In this document: piece by piece, positions 1,604 to 20,676 of the stretch
Layout: every line of letters begins with the position of its first letter
Position numbering within the stretch: the stretch's first letter is position 1
Source of the DNA: Octopus sinensis
Taxonomy: Eukaryota
Assembly: GCF_006345805.1 (NCBI RefSeq)
Contig: NW_021824492.1
Coordinates: 1 to 20,676, forward strand
Length of the DNA: 20,676 nt
Direction: 5' to 3'
Translations under genes and position numbers: made by a program
Notes under the pieces: generated by a model
The model's input: only the letters and a program-made list of their open reading frames with translations
Told to the model about the DNA's origin: nothing
Database searches by the model: none

Positions 1604-1722
1604 GTCTAGTAATGGGGCATATCAGCCCTCAACAGAAAAAAGGAAGGCTTTCCTATCCGCGTGGGATCGAACCCACATCCCTTTGTTAATGCGACTAAGT
1701 GTGTTACCTTTGCACCAGCAAA
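1604..1722 (-). mobile_element. Degenerate tRNA-like head followed by HHR-like motif
   Basis: Minus strand: A-box tggtgcaaagg, B-box in hairpin gtggg-ttcgat-cccac, then ctgttga-gggc-tgatat-gccc; GAAA not retained. Confidence 0.5.
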
Positions 1723-1783
1723 TTTACGTCCCCCGTTTCAGTTAAATTTAAGAACAATATTAGTTCGTATTTGCATATATATA

Positions 1784-2568
1784 TATATACTCTTTTATAC
1801 GTTTCAGTCATTTGACTGCGGCCATGTTGGAGCACCACCTTTAGTCGAAGAAATAGACCCCAGGACTTATTCTTTGTAAATCTAGTACTTATTCTATCGG
1901 TGTATTTTGCCAAACCTCTAAGTCACAGGGACGTAAACATACCAACATCGGTTGTCAAGCGATGGTGGGGAACAAACACAGATACACAAACGCATAAATA
2001 TATATGCACACACACACACATATATATATATACACGATGGGCTTCTTTTAGTTTTCGTCTACCAAATCCACCCACAAGGCTTTGGCCATCCCTTGGCTAT
2101 AGTAGAATACATGTGAGGGCGCGTGGCTTAGTGGTTAGGGCATTCGGCTCATGATCGTAAGGTTGTGAGTTCGATTCCCGGCGACGCGTTGTGTCCTTGA
2201 GCAAGACACTTTATTTCACGTTGCTCCAGTCCACTCAGCTGGCAAAAATGAGTTGTACTTGTATTTCAAAGGGTCAGCCTTGTCACTCTTTGTGTCACGC
2301 TGATTATCCCCGAGAACTACGTTAAGGGTACACGTGTCTGTGGAATGCTCAGTCATTTGCACGTTAATTTCACGAGCAAGCTGTTCCGTTGATCGTATCA
2401 GCTGGGACCCTCGTCGTCGTAACCGGCGGAGTCTTTTAAGAGAGGAGATAAAGAGTAAAAAAAAAAGAGAGTAGAAGACACTTGCCCAAGTTGTTACGCA
2501 GTGGGACTGAACCCGGAACCATGTGGTTGGGAAGCATCTATTTCACCACACAGCCACTACTACGATTA
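1784..2568 (-). mobile_element. tRNA-derived SINE family A, interrupted by nested SINE
   Basis: Head at about 2481-2566 (minus tggctgtgtgg ... ggttcagtccc); body matches copies at 3227-3585 and 2619-2840; candidate TSD tgcatatatata at 1772-1783 and 2569-2580. Confidence 0.9.
2112..2469 (+). mobile_element. tRNA-derived SINE family C, nested insertion
   Basis: A-box tggcttagtgg 2124-2134, B-box gttcgattcc 2169-2178, core tgtgtccttgagcaagacac, A/G-rich tail; TSD agtagaa(t/g)aca at 2101-2111 and 2470-2480. Confidence 0.92.
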
Positions 2569-6639: not shown

Positions 6640-6854
6640 GAAGCTGGCGAGCTGGCAGAAACGTTAGCGCCCCGGGCGAAATGCTTAGCGACATTTCGTC
6701 TGCCTTTACGTTCTGAGTTCAAATTCTGCCGAGGTCGACTTTGCCTTTCTTCCTTTCGAGGTCGATAAAATAAGTACCAGTTGAGTACTGGCGGTCGATG
6801 TAATAGACTATCCTCATCCACCAAACTTCAGGTCTAGTGCCTATGGTGCGAAGG

Positions 6855-13477: not shown

Positions 13478-13690
13478 TTTCAAATTTCTGCAAAAGCGGA
13501 ACAAGTTCGGGCGATCCGGTGAGTTGATTACATCAACCCCAGTGCATAACTGGTACTTATTTTATCCATTCCGAAACAATAAAAGACAGAGTCGACCTCG
13601 ACGGAATTTGAACTCAGAACGTAAAGACAAACGAAATAACAGTAAGCACTTTGCCCGGCGCGCTAACGATTCTGCCAACTCGCCGCCTTA
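13478..13690 (-). mobile_element. tRNA-derived SINE family B
   Basis: gtcgacctcgacggaatttgaactcagaacgtaa is identical to the 7844-8070 copy; head ends ctcgccgcctta. Confidence 0.92.
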
Positions 13691-14837
13691 ATAGAAACCT
13701 ACAATAGGAAATGTATTTACGACTATTAACACTGTTGATCCCTTCTTTTTTAAGGTTGTACACAGACTGATTTAAGATGCATTTAGCTGTTATGTCTAGC
13801 AGGTCGAGCCCACTGATGGTGGTAGTTTTGATAATGATGGCGATGATGGTTACTGAAAGTGGTGGCGCTGATGTTGTTAATAAATAGAGGTTGTGCATGG
13901 AGATATTAGGAGTCATTGTGAAGGTGGTGGTGATGATGGTGATAATGGTATTGTTGTTTGTGATGGGGTTTGGGGAATGGGGCTTATTAATGATAATAGT
14001 ATCTGAGTGAGGAGATGAAAAACGGATGTGGATGGGCGCTGTGCTATTAAACTACAAATCTCAAGTCCTTCAGGACCTCATCAAAACCCGGAATCAACGT
14101 TTTCACAGAGCGAAATTTGCCAATTCTGTTTAAACACTAAGTTGATGAGAAAAGTAGGACGCAGACTCTTCTCGCGTTTCAAAATAGTTGTTGTGTTGGT
14201 ATTTTTATATTTAAAGACACAGACACAGTCCTCACGGACACACACAAGGACACACACAGGCATACTCACACAAATATTAATATAAACACAGCCATACGCA
14301 ATGTGTTACCGAAAAGGAAAACTATAAATGTCACTAAATGCGACTAGGGTGTTAGGACACCTTCATTGCTAGAAATAAGAGCTAAAATGGTCTACTTGCT
14401 GTAGTGAAGGCACATAAATTGTATCCATATATGCTGAGAGGGATGTAATCGGGCAAACACCGATCGAGAATTCGATAGGTACAAATATATATATGTATAT
14501 ATATGTATATGAATATGTATACATGAAATATAACATGTTTGTGTGTGTGTGCGTGTGTGTGTGTGTGTGTGTATGTGTAGATGCATATGATTCCAAATAT
14601 ACATACATAATATATACATATAATATTTATGTGAAATAGAAAGATGAATAATCTTTAGTAGATTAATCAACAGTTTAACCGATACCTTAGTAGCAAAAAT
14701 CACAGCAGTAAACAGCACGGTTGGAGTACAAACCATCTGGCGTTGCAACCGTGCGTTGGTGCGGATAATTGAAATTAAAACATTATTGGTGAATTGAAGA
14801 AATGGAGCTGAACGCAGATTGAACAGAAATCGTTTAT

Positions 14838-14923
14838 TTCATTCTACACGTGTTCGAAAGGCACAAATTACCAAAATCCGATTGAATAATGGGACCATAT
14901 TGTGTCTTTCTCTTCAGGAAGAA
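14838..14923 (-). ncRNA. Mirror copy of the minimal hammerhead ribozyme
   Basis: Reverse complement of the 15021-15106 HHR, but reads GAA instead of GAAA. Confidence 0.7.
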
Positions 14924-15020
14924 AAAAGGAAATCCGTTGGAAAAACAAAAACAGAACAGAGGCGATTTGTTTTTTGCTCCGCCTCTGTTCTGTTTTTGTT
15001 TTTTCCAACGGATTTCCTTT

Positions 15021-15106
15021 TTCTTCCTGAAGAGAAAGACACAATATGGTCCCATTATTCAATCGGATTTTGTAATTTGTGCCTTTCGAAACACGTGTAG
15101 AATGAA
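15021..15106 (+). ncRNA. Minimal type I hammerhead ribozyme
   Basis: Stem I ttc; CTGAAGA 15027-15033; stem II gaaagacacaa/ttgtgcctttc; GAAA 15088-15091; palindromic CACGTG; TA; gaa. Canonical core, predicted cleavage after GUA at 15099. Confidence 0.88.
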
Positions 15107-15192
15107 ATAAAACGATTCTGTTCAATCTGCGTTCAGCTCCATTTCTTCAATCACCAATAATGTTTTATATATATATATATATTATATATAAT

Positions 15193-19109: not shown

Positions 19110-19166
<57 letters not shown>

Positions 19167-19366
19167 ATTATATATCAATCTGTTGATTCACTAGGGCAAT
19201 AAATTATAGGACTCAATACAAAGTTGAATACTCTATAACTGAAAGGTGTTCAATTTCCTGTACTCAGTTAATCGTCCGATCATCAACCGGGTTCTCATTC
19301 CTAAAGTATTTTTCGCTGATATTATTATTATTATTATTATTGATATTATTATTTATTTATTTATTC

Positions 19367-19439
19367 AAGGCACTGCCTAGAATTGAACTCGCAATCTTGG
19401 GGTTAGTAGCACGCGCTCTTAACCATTACGCTAATGCCC
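19367..19439 (-). mobile_element. tRNA-like head (resembles tRNA-Ile lineage; loop ctactaa)
   Basis: Minus gggcattagcgtaatggttaagagcgcgtgctactaaccccaagattgcgagttcaattctaggcagtgcct; acceptor-like gggcatt/agtgcct, A and B boxes; anticodon and T stems poorly paired. Confidence 0.8.
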
Positions 19440-19440
19440 G

Positions 19441-19457
19441 TAATAATGATAATAATA

Positions 19458-19515
<58 letters not shown>

Positions 19516-19562
19516 TAATAACAATAATAATAATAATAATAGTAATGATAATGATGATGATG
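19441..19562. repeat. (AAT)n/(GAT)n array
   Basis: Direct. Confidence 0.95.
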
Positions 19563-19619
19563 ACAGCAAAAAATCCGATAGGAATGAGAATCCAGGGTTG
19601 GGTTCAAAATCCTAGCAGG

Positions 19620-19664
19620 ACACCTGATGAAGGCTGGAGAGTATATCAGCCGAAATGTTATGGT
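19620..19664 (+). ncRNA. Minimal hammerhead-like motif, partly degenerate
   Basis: acac CTGATGA(19624-19630) a ggctg-gagagtatat-cagcc GAAA(19652-19655) tgtt atgg; core and stem II intact, stems I/III decayed. Confidence 0.72.
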
Positions 19665-20676
19665 AACAACAAACAAGATGAGGACAGATATCCATCAAAT
19701 GTAAATAATGTAAATAAAGGGCTGGTGATGTTCTGAAACATCATCATCATCATCATTGTTATAATGATTATTTTTGATATCTCTATCCTCGCCGTCATCC
19801 TTGTAGTAGTAGTAGTAGTATTTGCAGCTCTCTCTCCCTTGCATACACACTCACACCAATACTCACACACACACACACAGACACACACACACAGACACAG
19901 ACACACACGCACACATACACACACGTAGACACGGACAATTTCGATCGGCTTCCGTTATTCGGACAAAGGTGAGAAGGAGGAGAGGGAAAGGGAGTAGAAG
20001 GGTTTTGGTGGCGGGGAGGGGGACATGGCTGTATCCACCCATCCGCCACCCCGAATCGCTACCCTAGCCAAAACTAAAACTAAACATAAAAAACCTCCAA
20101 AACAAAACAAAAAAATATCTGAAGCCATCCGCCCTCCCCAATCCACATCAGCACCCATAACCACCCCTTAACCACCCGACAACAAACGAATGGAATTTGG
20201 TCAATCATTACCGACCCACCCGCCACCCCGAGATATATTTGTTATCAAACTGCAACCCTCTCCATGCAACATCACTAAATCCTCCTCCGCCTCTTCCTTC
20301 ATCTCCGCCTTTTCTGAGACCCTCACCCTCACCCCTCCCGTCTCCACCCCACCACCTCTCCCCATCAACACGCCCTCTGCCGCCTCCCCCCACCCCGCTT
20401 CTCTCTCCCTCTCCGTTAATCCAGCCGTAATTACGTAGATTAGTCCATCGTCCTGTCACCCGACACTCTTAATCATCTCTCTCTTTATTAACACAACTCT
20501 CACACTAAATAGATTTGTACAACAAAAAAACCTTTTTTCGCCAAAAAAAAAACTTACCACCGCCACCGCCACCACCGATGACACAAACACTACCGCCGCC
20601 GCCTCAATCATTAACCGCCGTCACCACCATCATTGCTCCCTGTCTTTCGCTTGTTCACTCTGCTTTTCTCTCTTAT

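What the first reader, a model, noticed from the sequence alone, without database searches (positions are those of the whole stretch)
19288..19718. Composite tRNA-(AAT)n-hammerhead element: candidate ribozyme-bearing, Penelope-mobilised SINE
Seen: one 32-nt block occurs on both strands right after (AAT)n (minus 19319-19288 cagcgaaaaatactttaggaatgagaacccgg; plus 19564-19595 cagcaaaaaatccgataggaatgagaatccag). On minus it follows a tRNA-like head; on plus it leads into CTGATGA-stem-GAAA. Inference: the unit is tRNA head + (AAT)n + block + HHR + tail, present as two partial inverted copies. Known: PLEs carry minimal HHRs and often form inverted partial repeats; Schistosoma SM-alpha repeats combine a tRNA-like promoter with an HHR. 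Ordinary SINEs borrow LINE tails, so a PLE-partnered one would be unusual. I cannot check whether it is already described.
Basis: partly seen in the sequence, partly recalled or inferred. Interest (0 to 1): 0.85.

Follow-up and report, generated by a model that had tools for sequence, protein, structure and literature searches.

The report
Penelope retrotransposon with tRNA-derived start
This is a decayed two-armed insertion of a protein-coding Penelope-type jumping gene whose end repeat carries a tRNA-derived segment and a minimal hammerhead motif; the tRNA-like segment likely marks where its RNA begins, possibly as a polymerase III promoter, which would be unusual for an element that encodes its own enzyme.

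Summary
The sequence observation holds (block 26/32 identical; head-AAT-block-hammerhead-tail linked in 28 of 30 head-picked loci). But the unit is not a free-standing SINE. It is the pseudo-LTR of a decayed autonomous Penelope/Poseidon-type element (about 25,000 pieces, estimated). The head starts 29 nt after the stop codon of an RT + GIY-YIG ORF. The '32-nt block' holds the likely start codon, and the 'tail' is the first 45-55 codons. 40 of 42 head-to-head insertions carry the 30-37 nt Penelope extension on one arm only. The unusual part is the tRNA-derived head (A box +8, B box +53), absent from 24 relatives' 3' UTRs. Copy counts fall 5.4-fold across its 5' end, including in copies that run on into the ORF, so it likely marks the RNA start. 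The 2.9-kb sense strand has no TTTT. Short copies show no lineage of their own. Likely mechanism: internally primed cDNA runs off the RNA 5' end; polymerase III is plausible but untested. The window's hammerhead is mutated. I found no description in 10 paper searches, but could not check Dfam, Repbase or SINEBase.

The parts
19366..19439 (-). tRNA-derived head of the pseudo-LTR (left, minus-strand arm); G1 at 19439
   Evidence: Family heads align colinearly, A box to B box, with the genome's own tRNA genes (best Arg-TCT z 6.5, Thr z 4.5-5.9 for six genes; 7 isotypes sampled). The window copy scores 65.9 bits against a head profile.
19423..19433 (-). A-box-like motif (family majority at head position +8)
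   Evidence: Read; family position
19380..19388 (-). B-box-like motif GTTCRANNC (family majority at +53)
   Evidence: Read; family position
19319..19365 (-). (AAT)n spacer of the left arm
19284..19318 (-). Block with the ATG (19298-19296); the left arm breaks off here, and its hammerhead and tail are missing from the window
   Evidence: the sequence beyond (19165-19284) matched none of the fetched loci
19439..19441 (.). Head-to-head junction: left arm starts 2 nt upstream of G1, right arm is 5'-truncated inside (AAT)n
   Evidence: L031 row
19441..19563 (+). (AAT)n spacer of the right arm
19564..19595 (+). The '32-nt block': region of the likely start codon of the PLE ORF (ATG 19584-19586), subfamily B form
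   Evidence: subfamily B word occurs 165 times, about 2% of the family
19584..19718 (+).
   Evidence: 68% identical to the N-terminus of the 401-aa natural open frame of L235; 50% over 24 aa to the N-terminus of the 847-aa relative P0001, E 2e-4
19619..19664 (+). Minimal type I hammerhead motif, degraded: helix I 19619-19623/19660-19664, core 19624-19630, extra A 19631, helix II 19632-19637/19646-19651, GAAA 19652-19655, predicted cut after 19659
   Evidence: architecture matches the min-HHR of PMC4209133
19700..19718 (+). Short 3' end of the arm (no 30-37 nt extension), the inner of the family's two 3' end points
   Evidence: ends cluster at two points about 30 nt apart

Best explanation
The feature is a head-to-head insertion of two partial pseudo-LTR copies of a decayed, protein-coding Penelope/Poseidon-type retrotransposon, and the tRNA-derived head in that repeat likely marks the 5' end of the element's RNA. 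Shown: the unit follows the stop codon of an RT + GIY-YIG ORF and also precedes the ORF in frame; most head-bearing copies start at the head; insertions carry Penelope hallmarks. Inferred (about 0.7): in a tandem master, RNA starts a few bases upstream of the head and runs head - AAT - ATG/hammerhead - ORF - head - hammerhead. The element's protein nicks AT-rich DNA and primes reverse transcription inside the RNA, about 125 or 160 nt after the ATG, as shown in vitro for the anole element. Priming at the site near the RNA's 5' end gives a cDNA of about 300 nt that runs off at the head: the SINE-looking majority. Priming at the far site gives the ORF-bearing minority. Two cDNAs from opposite strands join head to head, often through the GCCC-AC-GGGC palindrome at the head's start. 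Inferred (about 0.45 overall): the head works as an internal polymerase III promoter that drives the whole unit. The hammerhead likely cuts only as a dimer or with protein help, and is not needed for insertion (by analogy).
For: ORF linkage: head 23/30, tail 20/30, both 16/30 by BLAST in ORF-picked loci; subfamily B is also ORF-linked (8 long copies). RT: Pfam RVT_1 E 1.1e-9. 47% and 55% identity to the 847-aa relative P0001, whose N-terminus aligns through the hammerhead-encoded stretch. Upstream copy of the unit runs in frame into the ORF (401-aa natural frame in L235, 320-aa in L233). The A/B subfamily indels are +6 and +9 nt, both in frame. One-sided extension in 40/42; shared flank word of 8 nt or more in 21/42 against 1.75% in mismatched pairs. 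5' step: exact words 7,951 (hammerhead), 5,401 (head +31), 1,005 (-32), 567 (about -393), a 5.4-fold fall over 62 nt against 1.8-fold over the next 361 nt; exact-match rates are similar (0.32, 0.32, 0.38, 0.44). Of 102 head copies not picked on the ORF, 53 start at -12..+5, 9 in -84..-13, 9 beyond -85. About 20 of 57 starts lie at -8..+5 without a palindrome fold-back (hand count). Of 40 copies that continue past the tail into the ORF, 6 reach head position +5; 4 start there and 2 run upstream; L235 also starts at +4. No T run of 4 or more on the sense strand of the 2,921-nt majority, whereas 44 relative bodies average 1.44 times their base-composition expectation and 3 of 44 have none. Mechanism by analogy: PMC11167929, PMC2377424.
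Against: No RNA start was observed: the RNA-seq is unstranded, shows no sharp ends, and is made of passenger reads from many copies. About as many starts (about 20 of 57) are palindrome fold-backs, which a template-switch hotspot alone could give. The TTTT absence is weak by itself: P 0.004 against base shuffles, 0.07 against a first-order Markov model, 0.10 against synonymous shuffles of 464 codons; GGGG is absent too; and another PLE family without any tRNA head also has a T4-free body (L260/L289). A TTTATAAG at about -36 (overlapping the stop codon) could start polymerase II at the same place. An uncapped 3-kb polymerase III RNA is a poor mRNA. No copy seen is both head-started and full-length: the head-started copies run about 60, 65, 340, at least 900 and about 1,000 nt past the tail. 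The head is a poor tRNA (no ARAGORN or Rfam call; T stem partly broken). The hammerhead shows pairing (87% helix I, 95% helix II) but no covariation, and only 6 of 59 copies keep it intact by a strict pattern.
Confidence: 0.65

Rival explanations
1. Same element, but the pile-up of 5' ends at the head is only a template-switch hotspot: the palindrome at the head's start lets two cDNAs anneal or one fold back. [quoted passage not shown]
For: About 20 of 57 junctions are palindrome-centred. Known Penelope uses a polymerase II-type internal promoter in the pseudo-LTR (PMC2377424). The head's next-best profile hits are heads of other tRNA SINEs of this genome, 13.6 bits and below.
Against: About 20 of 57 starts at -8..+5 do not use the palindrome. 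A and B boxes sit at canonical spacing. Only 29 nt separate the stop codon and the head, where relatives have about 160-490 nt between the end of the protein match and the hammerhead, so little room is left for another promoter.
Confidence: 0.15
2. The RNA does start at the head, but polymerase II starts it from the TATA-like word about 30 nt upstream; the tRNA-like sequence is a 5' leader.
For: TTTATAAG lies at about -36, the usual spacing for a start near -5 (read). Three relatives (L245, L251, L254) show TATAAA upstream of their hammerheads (printout; noticed, not counted). A capped RNA solves translation.
Against: The word overlaps the Leu-stop codons, which may explain it, and it is not a canonical TATA box. 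It does not explain intact A/B boxes or the lack of TTTT. Upstream TATA words also assist polymerase III promoters in many animals (recalled).
Confidence: 0.15
3. One reading: a true SINE lineage. Short head-started copies were themselves transcribed by polymerase III and re-copied by the PLE protein, forming a non-autonomous family.
For: Head-started copies outnumber ORF-bearing ones about 6 to 1. They keep A and B boxes, and the majority has no T4 terminator before the tail. 2 of 30 hammerhead-picked loci have ORF sequence.
Against: No diagnostic site separates long from short copies (subfamily A 35 vs 39 copies, 236 columns, smallest P 0.039 unadjusted; B 8 vs 26, 232 columns, smallest P 0.007 unadjusted), and divergence is equal (7.3 vs 6.8%; 7.6 vs 7.4%). 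Both subfamilies have long and short forms. In the anole element the protein needs RNA to +172 of the ORF, beyond the copied tail, so short copies would lack the binding site if that holds here.
Confidence: 0.1

Closest known systems
EN+ Penelope-like elements, Penelope/Poseidon clade (e.g. PAc of Anolis, PMC11167929; D. virilis Penelope, PMC2377424)
   Same: One ORF with RT and C-terminal GIY-YIG; pseudo-LTR from partial tandems; minimal hammerhead overlapping the ORF start; two 3' end points giving a 30-40 nt optional tail; inverted 5'-truncated copies.
   Different: The pseudo-LTR upstream of the hammerhead is a tRNA-derived head plus (AAT)n, not seen in 24 relatives' 3' UTRs (z at most 1.4 against 3.2 and 5.7). 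Most head-bearing copies start at that head. The sense strand has no TTTT.
Schistosoma SM-alpha / Sj-alpha hammerhead SINE-like repeats (seen only through review passages, PMC6765202)
   Same: Polymerase III-type promoter followed by a hammerhead; an upstream unit would drive the downstream one.
   Different: Those are short non-coding tandem repeats. Here the promoter-hammerhead unit is part of a 2.9-kb coding element, copies lie head to head, and the hammerhead is of the minimal type.
Non-LTR retrozymes of animals (bioRxiv 10.64898/2026.07.22.740005)
   Same: Short hammerhead-bearing sequences tied to PLE pseudo-LTRs and PLE machinery.
   Different: Defined as tandem arrays with a hammerhead in each unit; the preprint's main text has no occurrence of 'tRNA' or 'promoter'. 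Here copies are dispersed and inverted, with a tRNA head.
TRIMp3 elements Cassandra, Helenus, Ajax (PMC10886601)
   Same: A small-RNA-derived promoter inside a terminal repeat, proposed to come from a SINE inserted in the repeat.
   Different: Those are non-autonomous LTR elements, and the paper argues their autonomous partners must use polymerase II. Here the head sits in the autonomous element itself, and it is a PLE.
Octopus tRNA SINEs OK, OR1, OR2 (Ohshima and Okada 1994; not held; seen only as citations; the name OK is recalled)
   Same: tRNA-derived heads in what looks like the same animal group (host group inferred by me, not given).
   Different: Could not be compared. I cannot exclude that the short form was named there or in Repbase, Dfam or SINEBase.

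Membership tests
EN+ PLE (Penelope/Poseidon) | Single ORF with RT | tested here: met
   RVT_1 E 1.1e-9 on a natural open stretch; RT motifs. All copies seen are broken; no intact ORF was found.
EN+ PLE (Penelope/Poseidon) | C-terminal GIY-YIG endonuclease with CCHH | tested here: met
   By motif (recalled consensus; CCHH described) and 55% identity to the C-terminal 286 aa of P0001. The local Pfam and NCBIfam copies gave no hit on this part.
EN+ PLE (Penelope/Poseidon) | Pseudo-LTR from partial tandem arrangement | tested here: met
   Unit upstream and in frame with the ORF in L233, L235; junction word found 89 times.
EN+ PLE (Penelope/Poseidon) | Hammerhead motif in the pseudo-LTR | tested here: met
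   Minimal type I motif with extra base at 9/10.1, G10.1-C11.1 and palindromic CG at 15.2/16.2. Cleavage itself untested.
EN+ PLE (Penelope/Poseidon) | 30-40 nt tail at one end; inverted 5'-truncated copies | tested here: met
   40 of 42 head-to-head insertions.
EN+ PLE (Penelope/Poseidon) | No extra Zn-finger linker between RT and EN (separates it from Neptune and Nematis) | tested here: inconclusive
   No CX2-5CxxC seen in the translations; no tree with named references was built.
tRNA-derived SINE | 5' head from tRNA with A and B boxes | tested here: met
   not called by ARAGORN at default or by Rfam.
tRNA-derived SINE | Non-autonomous family separate from its partner | tested here: not met
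   The head is part of the autonomous element; no private sites in short copies.
tRNA-derived SINE | 3' end borrowed from a LINE tail, ending in poly(A) or a simple repeat | tested here: not met
   The 3' part is the PLE ORF's 5' end; (AAT)n is internal.
tRNA-derived SINE | Transcribed by RNA polymerase III | not testable with these tools
   RNA-seq uninformative; only indirect signs.
tRNA-derived SINE | Target-site duplications | tested here: met
   Shared flank words of 8-15 nt in 21 of 42 insertions against 1.75% in mismatched pairs; not specific to SINEs.
SM-alpha repeats / non-LTR retrozymes | Head-to-tail tandem arrays of short units | tested here: not met
   In the loci read short copies are single or head to head; no array of whole short units was seen. 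Not searched genome-wide.
SM-alpha repeats / non-LTR retrozymes | Self-cleavage and circular RNA | not testable with these tools
   No read ends at the predicted site (table 6 empty), in fragmented unstranded libraries that would not show them.

The most novel reading that the evidence does not exclude
An autonomous, protein-coding retrotransposon that swapped its promoter for a captured tRNA gene and is transcribed over 2.9 kb by RNA polymerase III, having lost every TTTT terminator; its 5' run-off copies are ready-made SINE look-alikes, which would show how SM-alpha-type promoter-plus-hammerhead repeats arise from Penelope elements.
Probability: 0.35. Interest if true: 0.8.

Novelty: new variant of a known kind. 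Interest (0 to 1): 0.52.

Why it matters
If the head is a working polymerase III promoter, this would be a coding retrotransposon read by the polymerase that is assumed to be limited to short non-coding elements (an assumption stated in PMC10886601), and it raises the question of how an uncapped RNA is translated. Even without that, the head gives a landmark that lets the RNA start and the internal priming of a Penelope element be read from genomic copies alone, supporting the in vitro model of PMC11167929 with thousands of natural products. It also offers a route from a PLE pseudo-LTR to SM-alpha-like repeats. For annotators: tens of thousands of 300-nt pieces with a tRNA head would be filed as SINEs though they are PLE ends. 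Limit: the family is dead here (copies 94-95% identical to their majority), so tests need a reconstruction or a living relative.

Tried and rejected
Rfam on the window, on 16 loci and on one 371-nt stretch: no hammerhead or tRNA at the feature. ARAGORN 0 of 51 loci; at a relaxed threshold it calls the L072 head tRNA-Ser(ACT) but also 2 of 24 control UTRs and 1 antisense hit, so no isotype is claimed. Head against phage records: one chance hit. Covariation of the hammerhead: none above shuffles; one search used a helix II register off by one and is discarded. Folding z-scores of -0.6 to -2.1 for hammerhead stretches and -0.7 for the head: uninformative. Pfam and NCBIfam on the endonuclease part: no hit. 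RNA: no RNA holder listed by the index; three raw RNA-seq runs of one study and one contig set gave equal strands, 84-86% of raw reads running on into unlike sequence and no sharp ends; counted neither for nor against. Idea that the tRNA head is shared by the wider PLE group: rejected, 0 of 24 relative UTRs. Idea of a free SINE family with the same head: none seen in 400 kb of random sequence (3 loci, all with the PLE tail), and the 2 of 30 head-picked loci without a tail are one ORF-linked copy and one arm of an inverted pair. Idea of an intron from the helix II loop to the tail end: dropped by inspection, 98 nt would shift the frame. The hammerhead scanner misses loops with a one-base offset (it missed the octopus-type motif), so its blanks are not absences. 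Corrections to my notebook: the head starts 29 nt after the stop (not 45), the upstream word covers -32..-14, and of the junction copies L347 has no sense head and L335 starts at about +29, so the count is 4 of 6, not 6 of 8. Papers not held: PMID 7932738, PMC5785218. No supplements were read; those of PMC13282606 and PMC4209133 may list this family.

Full report
Observation. The window is microsatellite-rich animal DNA from a 2.72-Gb genome; I take it to be an octopus from sequence style and recall, which no call states. On plus: (AAT)n, block 19564-19595, CTGATGA at 19624, GAAA at 19652, tail to 19718. The two blocks are 26/32 identical. The arms lie head to head with the junction at 19440.

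It is a high-copy repeat and the parts are linked. The plus arm has 2,933 first-look candidates, the head 1,165. Exact 19-mers occur 7,951 times (hammerhead core) and 5,401 times (head), reversed controls 0. With exact-match rates of 0.32 each this gives roughly 25,000 and 17,000 pieces; 3 loci in 400 kb of random sequence agree in order of magnitude. In 30 loci picked on the head word, 28 have the tail downstream on the same strand. The window copy belongs to a minor subfamily B (165 exact words, about 2%).

The unit is the end repeat of a coding element. Upstream of the head, L025 and L029 carry the end of an ORF. Searching with that ORF gave 30 loci, of which 23 have the head, 20 the tail and 16 both directly behind the stop codon by BLAST; the head starts 29 nt after the stop. 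[quoted passage not shown] In 2 of 10 copies picked on the ORF's 5' part (L233, L235) the unit also stands upstream, its tail running straight into the ORF; the junction word occurs 89 times. L235 has a natural 401-codon open frame through the block's ATG, the hammerhead and the tail into the ORF. The window's 19584-19718 translates as 45 open codons, 68% identical to that N-terminus and 50% over 24 aa to P0001's. The two subfamilies differ by indels of 6 and 9 nt. So the block holds the likely start codon and the tail is coding sequence. A hammerhead overlapping the ORF start is known from the anole element (PMC11167929, first two of four parts read).

Insertion hallmarks. Of 42 distinct head-to-head insertions, 40 have a 30-37 nt extension on exactly one arm, and 21 share a flank word of 8 nt or more against 1.75% of mismatched pairs. 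This is the tail and inverted structure described for PLEs (PMC8557442, passages). The two end points match the two internal priming sites found in vitro for the anole element.

The hammerhead. The family motif is a minimal type I: helix I of 5 pairs, CUGAUGA, an extra A, helix II of 5-6 pairs, GAAAC-GUU, as defined in PMC4209133 (first two of four parts read), where such motifs cut weakly and only as dimers. Pairing is 87% and 95% over 26 copies, with no covariation beyond shuffles, as expected for neutrally decaying copies; 13 of those 26 were picked on the core word, so core conservation there is not evidence. Subfamily B has an A.G mismatch in helix I. The window copy has two further changes at the junction; 6 of 59 copies keep a strict intact motif. 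Rfam does not detect it.

The head. ARAGORN and Rfam do not call it. It aligns colinearly over about 54 nt with the genome's tRNA genes (33 distinct genes, 7 isotypes): Arg-TCT z 6.5, six Thr genes 4.5-5.9, three Lys genes 4.7-5.1. A and B boxes lie at +8 and +53. A profile of heads finds, after true family members, mostly heads of other tRNA SINEs in register at 13.6 bits and below. In 24 3' UTRs from related PLEs of other organisms (drawn from 80 loci) nothing tRNA-like was found (z at most 1.4; the two family UTRs score 3.2 and 5.7). So the head was gained in this lineage.

The head is a 5' boundary. Exact words fall from 5,401 at +31 to 1,005 at -32 and 567 at about -393: 5.4-fold over 62 nt, then 1.8-fold over 361 nt. 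Of 102 distinct head copies not picked on the ORF, 53 start at -12..+5, 23 at +6..+20, 8 further in, 9 at -84..-13 and 9 beyond -85 (BLAST ends are blurred by a few bases, and head-picked sets under-count starts inside the head). By hand count of 57 junctions, about 20 fold back at the palindrome GCCC-AC-GGGC that spans -6..+4, about 20 start at -8..+5 without it, about 12 run on upstream, and the rest start further in. Among 40 of the 89 copies that continue past the tail into the ORF (first 44 listed, 4 left out), 6 reach head position +5: 4 start there and 2 run upstream; L235 also starts at +4. These head-started copies run about 60 to 1,000 nt into the ORF, so head-started RNA reads into the ORF; none was shown to be full-length.

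No separate SINE lineage. Long and short copies of subfamily A (35 and 39) differ at no column beyond chance (236 columns, smallest P 0.039) and are equally diverged (7.3 and 6.8%); B (8 and 26) likewise (smallest P 0.007 of 232; 7.6 and 7.4%). The test is small and could miss minor lineages.

Polymerase III. The 2,921-nt majority of 15 long copies has no run of four T on the sense strand: expected 5.4 from base shuffles (P 0.004), 2.7 from a Markov model (P 0.07), 1.8 from synonymous shuffles of 464 codons (P 0.10); runs of four G are absent as well. In 44 relative bodies of 1,500 nt or more, T4 runs number 249 against 173 expected, and 3 have none, two of them one family without a tRNA head. 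This is compatible with read-through by polymerase III, not proof. A TATA-like word at about -36 allows polymerase II to start at the same place. RNA-seq reads cover the unit on both strands equally, mostly 90-95% alike or less and running on into other sequence, with depth following copy number and no sharp ends; they do not decide anything.

Mechanism. Shown: identity as a PLE pseudo-LTR, PLE-type insertion, tRNA origin of the head, 5' boundary. Inferred: RNA start at the head (0.7); short copies as run-off cDNA from the priming site near the RNA's 5' end (by analogy and the tandem-promoter logic of PMC2377424, abstract and discussion read); polymerase III (0.45). The family is dead in this genome: copies are 94-95% identical to their majority and no intact ORF was seen.

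Prior work. Ten paper searches found no PLE with a tRNA-derived pseudo-LTR; I saw listings and abstract starts for most hits. PMC13282606 (first of three parts and passages) has no occurrence of 'hammerhead'. PMC8967140, PMC4758252, PMC6765202 and PMC10886601 were seen as passages; the retrozyme preprint as its first part and passages. Subscription papers, supplements, Dfam, Repbase and SINEBase were not checked, so an existing database entry is possible. The scan's own notes hold nothing on this family and one unrelated SINE-Penelope chimera in another genome.

Verdict. Real; a new variant of a known kind. The interesting residue is a tRNA-derived start in an autonomous Penelope element. Interest 0.52.

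Noticed in passing
window 14793-15151: Long inverted repeat (172-nt arms, 87% complementary, 15-nt spacer), repeated in random loci L099 and L111 at 82-94%; looks like a MITE or foldback element.
   Followed up: partly
window 2119-2188 (+): Head of another tRNA-derived SINE family (Rfam tRNA 25 bits, E 0.23; similar copies in L126, L117).
   Followed up: partly
window 6641-6791 (+) and 13539-13689 (-): Two copies of a third, abundant SINE-like repeat, about 89% identical to copies in L132, L182, L184.
   Followed up: partly
window 1653-1724 (-): Weak tRNA-like stretch with a B-box motif (Rfam 25.3 bits, E 0.21).
   Followed up: no
subfamily A block, e.g. L136:1440-1505: A second B-box-like motif just after the ATG; the block aligns weakly to a tRNA-Ala gene (z 3.6, others below 2). 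It is altered in subfamily B.
   Followed up: partly
L245, L251, L254, within 400 nt after the ORF end: Related PLEs from other organisms show TATAAA upstream of their hammerheads, a possible polymerase II promoter where this family has the tRNA head.
   Followed up: no
L260:3501-5406, L289:3495-5623: Another PLE family whose coding body lacks TTTT though its 3' UTR is T-rich and has no tRNA head.
   Followed up: partly
L245:3013-3080: Rfam tRNA hit (38.6 bits) 420 nt upstream of a 5'-truncated PLE match in a metagenome contig.
   Followed up: no
P0001 and P0002 N-termini: Both predicted proteins begin with residues that look like translated hammerhead cores, so the ribozyme inside the reading frame seems shared across this PLE group.
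   Followed up: partly
L178, L180, L189, L143-type copies: Other SINEs are nested inside the (AAT)n or block of several copies, and the (AAT)n tract expands to 30 or more units.
   Followed up: no
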